Source of the DNA: Octopus vulgaris
Lineage: Eukaryota
Length of the DNA: 64,000 bases
Assembly (NCBI GenBank): GCA_951406725.2
Contig: OX597824.1
Coordinates: forward strand, 22,010,001 to 22,074,000
Direction: 5' to 3'
Shown piece by piece: positions 23,338 through 57,492 of this stretch (positions are counted from its first letter, which is position 1; each line of letters starts with the position of its first letter). Position numbers and translations under genes: made by a program. The notes beneath the pieces were generated by a model. The model did not search any database and had not been told where the DNA came from. It was given only the letters and a program-made list of their open reading frames with translations.

Positions 23338-23369
<32 letters not shown>

Positions 23370-23411
23370 GAAAGAATGGAGTCGAACGAAGATGTTAACA
23401 AATTTCCTTTA

Positions 23412-23493
23412 CTCTCGACACATGTTTCGAAGACAGAATGTTCTCATTCCAAAGGAATAAAGGGTGCATTATGCAATCTTCTCATCAGGAAAG
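23412..23493 (-). ncRNA. Type I hammerhead ribozyme (Penelope-like pLTR)
   Basis: Minus strand reads CUUUC-CUGAUGA-GAAGA...UCUUC-GAA-AC(AUGU)GU-C-GAGAG. Full canonical core with a GUC cleavage triplet, and all three stems pair. Confidence 0.8.
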
Positions 23494-23564
23494 AAAGGGA
23501 GCCTCTCTCGACAACAAGACAAACAAAAATTTCGATGATTGCCTACATAGTAAACAAAGTGATA

Positions 23565-23614
<50 letters not shown>

Positions 23615-47205: not shown

Positions 47206-47283
47206 CGAGCGTTATACTAATACATCTGCTTGTTTTATATACCACCTGTCTTCGTTTTTTGTTTTTTTCGTGAACTCTCTACA

Positions 47284-47314
<31 letters not shown>

Positions 47315-47369
47315 AATACATACATATAAATAAATAGAGTTAAATGTAGGTGTTATTCAAATTCTTTTA

Positions 47370-47456
47370 CTTCCGATACATGTTTCGAAGATATCACTGG
47401 TATTATTCCAAAGGAATAAAATGGTGTAAAACAATGTAATCTTCTCATCAGGGAAA
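47370..47456 (-). ncRNA. Type I hammerhead ribozyme (Penelope-like pLTR)
   Basis: Minus strand reads UUUCC-CUGAUGA-GAAGA...UCUUC-GAAACAUGUAUC-GGAAG. Homologous to 23412-23493 with stem I changes that preserve pairing. Confidence 0.75.
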
Positions 47457-47658
47457 TGAAGAAATGAAACTTGCCAATAAGACATTTTAACAGAAAATGA
47501 TGGATATGTATAGTGATTAACTGAATGCTATTAAGCTTTTTTTAAAAAAATATTAGAGGATATAATATCAAAGGTAGCCTATAGAAAGAGGAGGGATAAA
47601 GGAAAGAAAAAAACATATAAATGAGAAGTATATAACGATATGTAAATTAAATAAAACC

Positions 47659-47913
47659 CTAAAATCTTGTGAAAAAGATATATCCAGTGAATGTGGAATG
47701 TAAGAAGAAAATTAATGTGTAAATTATATATAATGATAGATATCGCTTATATGAACTAAAGGTGTGTTTCTGCCAATGTTTACATTGGTATGCATGTTCT
47801 ATAACCATGTTTAAAAGGGGAATTTTAGAAAAAAGAATAAAAAGTAGTTCAGAATTACAGAGAAGACAGAATTCCTGGCCTTTATCATAAGGTATCAAAA
47901 CTGAGAGAATCTT
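47659..47913 (-). pseudogene. Penelope-like element (Naiad-type) GIY-YIG endonuclease C-terminal remnant, 5'-truncated
   Basis: KILSVLIPYDKGQEFCLLCNSELLFILFSKIPLLNMVIEHAYQCKHWQK fits the PY..CxLC..E...I...LLN...E...CxH..K pattern. It is followed by a 3' region containing a hammerhead and ending in (TA)n. Confidence 0.7.
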
Positions 47914-56992: not shown

Positions 56993-57094
56993 ATATATAT
57001 AATAATAATAATAATTATTTGAGGGAATATTAATCCTAACTTACAGGGAAAAAATTCAATTTAGAAATACTAAATCAAATTTCACACAATATAA

Positions 57095-57386
57095 TATATA
57101 TATATATAAAATTAGAAAAAAACCCACCTTTTATCAATTCAAAATGAACAATTAAATTACACCATCTAGAAAATTACATATAATAGAAATATTAAAATTA
57201 AAATAACAATAAAATACCAATGATTAAGTAAATTGCAAAAAAATAATAAAAGCGTCTATAATTAGTATTTTATTATTATTTTAATTTTAATATTTCTATT
57301 ATATGTAATTTTCTAGATGGTGTAATTTAATTGTTCATTTTGAATTGATAAAAGGTGGTTTTATTTCTAATTTTATATATATATAT
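57095..57386. repeat. Near-perfect inverted repeat, ~125-bp arms, ~40-nt spacer
   Basis: 57095-57221 pairs with 57261-57386. Confidence 0.9.
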
Positions 57387-57492
57387 ATAAATTTATATAA
57401 ATAAGGAGAAGATCATTAATTTAAATATCGATCTTATCAAGTGGCCAGCATGGGAATAAAAACCTTCAAAGGTAATAATTTTTATTAAAATC

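What the first reader, a model, noticed from the sequence alone, without database searches (positions are those of the whole stretch)
47327..47913. Naiad-type Penelope-like retroelement end: endonuclease CxxC...CxH remnant, 3' hammerhead, (TA)n target
Seen on the minus strand, in order: a coding remnant KILSVLIPYDKGQEFCLLCNSE...ILF...LLN...E...CKHWQK, about 200 nt of U-rich UTR after the stop at 47659, a type I hammerhead (47456-47370), then (TA)n. Known: Naiad PLEs have a C-terminal GIY-YIG domain with this Cys/His pattern and hammerheads in their pLTRs. This links the orphan ribozyme at 23.4 kb, and probably the TA-embedded fold-backs, to a ribozyme-carrying, microsatellite-targeting family that may be uncatalogued in this genome. 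Novelty is unverified.
Basis: partly seen in the sequence, partly recalled or inferred. Interest (0 to 1): 0.75.

Follow-up and report, generated by a model that had tools for sequence, protein, structure and literature searches.

The report
Hydra retroelement lacking its targeting finger
This is the broken tail of a very abundant octopus jumping gene of a known group (Hydra-type Penelope elements, not Naiad); its lineage has lost the small cysteine finger thought to aim such elements at TA repeats yet still sits in TA repeats, and it carries a predicted self-cutting RNA with an unusually long arm.

Summary
The anatomy is real, the label is wrong. 47327-47911 (-) is a 5'-truncated, decayed 3' end of a Penelope-like element whose longer copies read RT, then C-terminal GIY-YIG with CxxC/CxH, then a hammerhead and (TA)n. 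That is the Hydra clade; Naiads have an N-terminal endonuclease and no canonical hammerhead (Craig 2021). The true stop is 47745-47743 (mutated here); no selenocysteine. The lineage has at least 10,470 hammerhead ends genome-wide and intact 778-aa copies. Two departures from described Hydra families: (1) the CxCX5C linker, proposed to direct (TA)n insertion, is absent in 10 of 10 long ORFs from this genome but present in 48 of 48 library relatives with a readable endonuclease, yet 29 of the 30 youngest copies end in (TA)n; (2) helix II is 53-58 nt (10-24 in published Hydra rows), covaries, and helix III is a self-complementary 8-mer. The youngest subfamily carries a U4C core. This copy's ribozyme is probably dead. 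The scan noted long-helix-II Hydra hammerheads before, here and on other DNA; linker loss was not found in its notes. New variant of a known kind; cleavage and empty target sites untested.

The parts
47327..47911 (-). 5'-truncated copy (585 bp) of an older subfamily of the Hydra-clade element; about 5.6% from the majority of 30 copies
47746..47911 (-). C-terminal 55 codons of the GIY-YIG endonuclease: CxxC at 47868-47857, conserved E at 47850-47848, N at 47811-47809, CxH at 47784-47776
47743..47745 (-). decayed stop codon (CGA here; TGA in 22 and TAA in 3 of 30 copies)
47469..47742 (-). U-rich 3' UTR / pLTR part before the ribozyme
47356..47468 (-). type I hammerhead with extended, bulged helix I; core at 47451-47445 and 47386-47375; predicted cut after 47375
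47387..47444 (-). 58-nt helix II: 6 bp, 2x2 loop, 5 bp, asymmetric loop, apical hairpin (z -2.9 against 200 shuffles)
47376..47383 (-). short helix III, a self-complementary 8-mer in the family; broken in this copy by G16.2 to A
47327..47341 (-). short fixed 3' terminus, one of two fixed ends of the lineage (inferred start site of reverse transcription)
47283..47326 (.). (TA)n microsatellite at the 3' end, likely the target
23355..23566 (-). 212-bp 3' end of a younger sister subfamily with an intact-looking hammerhead (23371-23520, GUC site), (TA)n on both sides

Best explanation
The stretch is a 5'-truncated, decayed 3' end of a high-copy Hydra-clade Penelope-like retrotransposon whose lineage lacks the cysteine linker finger, likely inserted by target-primed reverse transcription into a TA microsatellite and carrying a hammerhead that is predicted to cut only as a dimer. 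Shown: domain order RT then GIY-YIG; tandem and inverted copies; two fixed 3' ends about 170 nt apart; (TA)n at 3' ends; linker absent; helix II of 53-58 nt with paired changes; self-complementary helix III. Inferred: the endonuclease cuts (TA)n, reverse transcription starts inside the RNA at one of the two A/U-rich fixed sites (as shown in vitro for the anole element PAc), both cut strands can prime and give inverted two-armed copies, and early stops give pieces like this one. Inferred: TA choice rests on the nuclease domain itself (with its CxxC/CxH site) and perhaps on pairing with the A/U-rich start site, not on the linker finger; ribozyme cutting is weak or dispensable.
For: RT motifs upstream in longer copies of the same subfamily; intact 778-aa ORFs and sister ORFs of 646-885 aa open frame; model pLDDT 84, best fold matches telomerase RTs; Hydra features DKT, RW, CxxC/CxH, no CCHH; the 10 own ORFs form one group (support 100, quick tree) inside linker-bearing relatives; linker CxC...C in 48 of 48 library proteins with a readable endonuclease (of 150 hits), 0 of 10 own ORFs; (TA)5 within 45 nt at 84 of 118 3' ends versus 8.8% of random window positions and at 29 of 30 youngest copies; about half of plain 5' ends of the youngest copies also touch TA (7 of 12, by eye); 10,470 exact matches to a 15-base core motif versus 36 for the control, 29 of the first 30 being this element; covariation 34 double-change cells versus 15 shuffled on a MAFFT alignment; helix III variants keep the 8-mer self-complementary; U4C core in 25 of 30 youngest copies, 0.7% apart, 515 exact matches.
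Against: No empty target site was seen (contigs stop at the microsatellites), and only 10 of 35 5' ends in the broader sample have TA, so part of the (TA)n could be made during insertion or expanded later. The genome is very rich in TA repeats and the 3' ends in my library end in a few TA units, which favours TA calls. The covariation controls do not correct for relatedness, and alignment A2 was fitted to the structure. The whole hammerhead region of this copy folds only at z -1.3 and several copies prefer other folds when unconstrained. U4C is reported to keep enough activity in vivo in a viroid (Perreault 2011, passage), so it does not prove loss of cutting. Pfam gives no domain hit for the ORFs and the GIY-YIG fold was not confirmed by a separate structure search. 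The tree is the quick one and holds no named reference elements.
Confidence: 0.85

Rival explanations
1. It is a Naiad element end, possibly encoding a selenoprotein.
For: (TA)n preference is shared by Naiads, and Naiad families are listed for octopuses; the subfamily stop is TGA.
Against: Endonuclease is C-terminal; no CCHH; canonical-order hammerhead present; the TGA is the terminal stop, TAA or TAG in sister subfamilies; intact ORFs have no internal TGA.
Confidence: 0.01
2. The (TA)n tails are largely made by the element's telomerase-related RT, by repeated copying of the short UA-rich start site, so there is no microsatellite targeting to explain.
For: TA is at nearly all 3' ends but at only 10 of 35 5' ends; both fixed ends lie at A/T-rich internal motifs; the RT fold is telomerase-like.
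Against: 7 of 12 plain 5' ends of the youngest copies also touch TA; many 3' flanks are compound repeats (TA with CA, GA or TATG) that differ between copies; unrelated families end in the same tracts.
Confidence: 0.15
3. The long helix II is a protein-binding or start-site signal and the ribozyme core is a decaying passenger; the RNA works as a scaffold rather than a catalyst.
For: Helix II architecture is kept across subfamilies about 70% alike while the youngest subfamily has U4C and often GUA; hammerhead mutants did not affect insertion by PAc in vitro (Frangieh 2024, passage).
Against: The core and the self-complementary helix III are conserved in all other subfamilies, which points to selection for cleavage. 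Not exclusive of the best explanation.
Confidence: 0.3
4. It is simply a copy of the catalogued Hydra-1_Obim family.
For: Craig et al. list one octopus Hydra family, 2507 bp, (TA)n.
Against: That family has a CSCR...C linker, a 22-nt helix II and a different RT sequence.
Confidence: 0.02

Closest known systems
Hydra clade of C-terminal EN+ Penelope-like elements, incl. Hydra-1_Obim (Craig et al. 2021, PMC8557442; passages, sections 11 and 12, supplement hits and part 2 of 59 read)
   Same: Single ORF, RT then GIY-YIG; DKT; RW; no CCHH; CxxC and CxH around E and N; hammerhead near the 3' end; (TA)n insertions; about 3 kb.
   Different: No CxCX5C linker (replaced by a low-complexity N/S-rich stretch plus a conserved cysteine-free peptide); RWL instead of RWK; helix II 53-58 nt versus 10-24 nt in the 26 Hydra rows of File S2; optional 3' extension about 170 nt rather than 30-40 nt; U4C core in the youngest subfamily.
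Naiad clade (same paper)
   Same: (TA)n preference, tandem and inverted insertions, present in cephalopods.
   Different: Naiads have an N-terminal endonuclease, CxC and IFD domains, CCHH, and no canonical hammerhead.
Minimal type I hammerheads of metazoan PLEs (Cervera and de la Pena 2014, PMC4209133; parts 1-2 of 4 read)
   Same: Type I, short palindromic helix III, predicted dimer cleavage, pLTR location, thousands of solitary copies.
   Different: Published helix II is 7-8 bp; here it is a three-segment arm, and helix I is long and bulged. A long loop II has a precedent in spike-moss PLE-X1 (File S2 of Craig 2021).
PAc, Poseidon element of Anolis (Frangieh et al. 2024, PMC11167929; passages read)
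   Same: Two fixed genomic 3' ends explained by internal RT start sites; AT-rich targets; hammerhead in the pLTR.
   Different: PAc starts in an AC-rich stem loop inside the ORF with no homology to the target; here both ends lie in untranslated A/U-rich motifs that resemble the TA target (pairing is inferred, not shown).

Membership tests
Naiad PLEs | GIY-YIG endonuclease N-terminal to RT | tested here: not met
   RT precedes the endonuclease in all long copies
Naiad PLEs | no canonical hammerhead | tested here: not met
   canonical-order type I core present
Naiad PLEs | CCHH motif in the endonuclease; DKA motif | tested here: not met
   no CCHH; DKT in 3 of 3 ORFs that reach it
Naiad selenoproteins | in-frame TGA at conserved cysteines plus SECIS | tested here: not met
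   778-aa open frames without TGA; terminal stop varies among TGA, TAA, TAG. SECIS itself was not searched with a dedicated tool; Rfam found none in the window
Hydra PLEs | single ORF with C-terminal GIY-YIG, element under about 3 kb | tested here: met
   L071 unit about 3.0 kb with 778-aa ORF
Hydra PLEs | DKT motif and RWK motif | tested here: met
   SDKT in L071, L072, L073; RWL (K changed) in L071, L073
Hydra PLEs | no CCHH; CxxC and CxH on either side of conserved E and N | tested here: met
Hydra PLEs | CxCX5C linker before the endonuclease | tested here: not met
   0 of 10 own ORFs, 48 of 48 library relatives; filed as a derived variant because it nests among linker-bearing relatives
Hydra PLEs | canonical hammerhead near the 3' end | tested here: inconclusive
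   core canonical, but helix II 53-58 nt is outside the published range; U4C in the youngest subfamily
Hydra PLEs | insertion into (TA)n | tested here: met
   84 of 118 3' ends and 29 of 30 youngest copies; empty sites not seen
Hydra PLEs | RT phylogeny with named Hydra references | tested here: inconclusive
   tree built only with unnamed library relatives that show Hydra motifs
Active hammerhead ribozyme | self-cleavage after NUH | not testable with these tools
   needs an in vitro assay; this copy has a broken helix III pair

The most novel reading that the evidence does not exclude
An octopus Hydra lineage, recently active and present in over 10,000 ends, has discarded the linker zinc finger and finds TA microsatellites by pairing the cut DNA with UA-rich start sites in its own RNA, while the enlarged hammerhead serves as a folded docking scaffold that stays useful after its catalytic core weakens.
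Probability: 0.2. Interest if true: 0.7.

Novelty: new variant of a known kind. Interest (0 to 1): 0.42.

Why it matters
The linker finger has been proposed as the part that directs Penelope-like elements to microsatellites (Craig 2021, passages). A young lineage without it that still ends in (TA)n, with intact 778-aa copies, is a natural test case for that idea and can be assayed as the anole element was. It also adds at least ten thousand hammerheads whose long helix II escapes Rfam and short-spacer descriptors, and a recent expansion with a U4C core bears on whether PLE ribozymes are needed for mobility. The window copy itself is a fossil.

Tried and rejected
Naiad and selenoprotein readings: rejected. 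Link to the window's TA-flanked fold-backs: no hit to a library of 12 lineage references and 12 extensions; 57094-57388 matches another family. Rfam: no hit. Pfam: none for two full ORFs, one weak unrelated hit for the window peptide. PDB sequence search and a single-sequence fold of the endonuclease part were uninformative (pLDDT 35). Expression: no RNA holder listed; no evidence either way. Empty-site test on L106 with four runs: contigs end at the microsatellites, no joint across the element; whether other labelled organisms carry the U4C subfamily stays open. Full-length protein search on the linker plus endonuclease region: none of 289 candidates scored; the short search gave 1 of 14. In one search two loci (L155, L163) were read on the wrong strand and were left out of the 5'-end count; one search repeats the 3' counts with strands set by translation. 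Literature: six searches found no description of a linker-less Hydra lineage or of this hammerhead in octopus; Repbase, Dfam and the repeat library of Bonar et al. 2026 (PMC13282606; part 1 of 3 and a term search read, supplements not read) could not be or were not checked and may hold the family as an unclassified Penelope.

Full report
Observation. The minus strand reads the quoted peptide, then a U-rich stretch, a hammerhead core at 47451-47445 and 47386-47375, and (TA)n at 47283-47326. A second hammerhead at 23.4 kb is 75% alike over 123 nt; a model built from 15 copies finds just these two in the window (both were in its training set). Rfam finds neither.

Family. A 621-base query gave 3271 first-look candidates in the 2.8-Gb genome; all 40 scored matched (the window itself, and 39 others at 88-92%), from query position about 50 onward. 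So the window copy is cut at 47911. Other copies are cut at other places, often with an inverted piece, and share one 3' end. The longest carry RT motifs upstream of the endonuclease. A protein search led to sister subfamilies with open frames of 646-885 aa, three of them complete 778-aa ORFs. The model of one is confident (pLDDT 84) and matches telomerase RTs best. The host is likely an octopus: the one named relative is an Octopus sinensis protein, which also lacks the linker; the flanking SINEs looked octopus-like from memory only.

Clade. Craig et al. 2021 (passages, sections 11-12, supplement hits and part 2 of 59) define Naiads by an N-terminal endonuclease and no canonical hammerhead, and Hydra elements by a C-terminal endonuclease without CCHH, CxxC and CxH around E and N, DKT, RWK, a CxCX5C linker, a hammerhead and (TA)n. 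This element fits Hydra. Their one octopus Hydra family has the linker and a 22-nt helix II, so it is a different family. There is no sign of selenocysteine.

Linker loss. Of 150 library relatives, 48 have a readable endonuclease; 45 match a strict linker pattern and all 48 a relaxed CxC...C one; none of 10 long ORFs from this genome does. In the alignment the four linker cysteines are replaced by a conserved cysteine-free peptide after an N/S-rich stretch of variable length. In a quick tree of 63 proteins the 10 form one long-branched group (support 100) whose nearest relatives keep the linker; no named references were in the tree.

Target. In 81 loci, (TA)5 lies within 45 nt of 84 of 118 3' ends and 10 of 35 5' ends, against 8.8% of random window positions; some of those 10 are short inverted 3' ends that the library missed. 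Among the 30 best matches to the youngest endonuclease (0.7% apart), 29 end in (TA)n; the other has a deletion and was not parsed. Of 12 plain 5' ends there, 7 touch TA by eye. Compound flanks differ between copies. This favours pre-existing microsatellite targets with frequent target loss at the 5' side, but an empty site was not seen. There are two fixed 3' ends: one about 50 nt past the cut site, and one about 170 nt further, some 60 nt before the start codon of the next tandem unit; both lie at A/T-rich motifs (13 short and 16 long among the youngest). This parallels the two internal RT starts of PAc (Frangieh 2024, passages).

Ribozyme. Across 15 copies from about ten subfamilies helix II is 53-58 nt and folds as 6 bp, a small loop, 4-5 bp, an asymmetric loop and an apical hairpin (z -1.6 to -4.0), against 10-24 nt in the 26 Hydra rows of File S2; spike-moss PLE-X1 rows there have a long loop II, so length alone has a precedent. 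Helices I and II covary (34 double-change cells against 15 shuffled; 93 against 38 on a model-fitted alignment of 47 rows); the apical hairpin is conserved but shows no double change; relatedness is not corrected for. Helix III is two pairs around a four-base loop whose common variants all keep the 8-mer self-complementary, the dimer design of Cervera and de la Pena 2014 (parts 1-2 read). A 15-base motif of this end occurs 10,470 times (control 36); 29 of the first 30 are the element, and many come as outward-facing pairs. The youngest subfamily has U4C in 25 of 30 copies and mostly GUA (515 exact matches); U4C lowers activity in vitro but sufficed in a viroid (Perreault 2011, passage). The window copy has G16.2 changed to A and is likely inactive.

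Mechanism. Shown: anatomy, copy structure, TA association, linker absence, RNA pairing. Inferred: a tandem transcript is trimmed weakly by dimeric hammerheads; the protein cuts (TA)n, starts reverse transcription at an internal UA-rich site, on one or both strands, and often stops early. With no linker finger, TA choice must come from the nuclease domain, from RNA-DNA pairing, or from tail synthesis; these were not separated.

Novelty. Six paper searches showed no account of this lineage; Bonar 2026 counts 31 recently active Penelope-like families in an octopus without naming clades (part 1 of 3; term search); Li 2026 (bioRxiv, part 1 of 5) concerns retrozymes. Repeat databases were not available. 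Earlier notes of this scan already report long-helix-II Hydra hammerheads in this and another genome; a word search for linker loss found no note. Verdict: new variant of a known kind, interest 0.42.

Noticed in passing
window 47206-47280 (+): 3' end of a different repeat family that elsewhere carries a short-helix hammerhead-like motif; it ends in the same (TA)n tract from the other side, tail to tail with the finding (15 blast rows in held loci).
   Followed up: partly
window 57094-57388: TA-flanked fold-back that belongs to another multi-copy family (93-96% to pieces in L092 and L112), not to this lineage.
   Followed up: partly
L069, L070, L071, L075, L079; L149-L178: Youngest subfamily: 31 copies with an identical 120-aa endonuclease, U4C core and frequent GUA site; three complete 778-aa ORFs.
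   Followed up: yes
L121, L123, L127, L131, L134, L136, L137, L140, L144, L148 (extension after the short end): The optional 170-nt 3' extension keeps a conserved central motif across subfamilies only 65-80% alike; its structure was not analysed.
   Followed up: no
L093:1983-2100, L107:700-800, L125:2030-2200: The 5' side of several copies joins directly to outward-facing ends of other hammerhead-like repeat families, suggesting template switching between RNAs or nested insertion.
   Followed up: no
P0152: A piece of this retroelement is annotated as an uncharacterized host protein in Octopus sinensis.
   Followed up: partly
L072:2235 and 2795 (-): Two identical short hammerhead-like motifs 560 bp apart, unrelated to this lineage; possible retrozyme-type tandem.
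   Followed up: no
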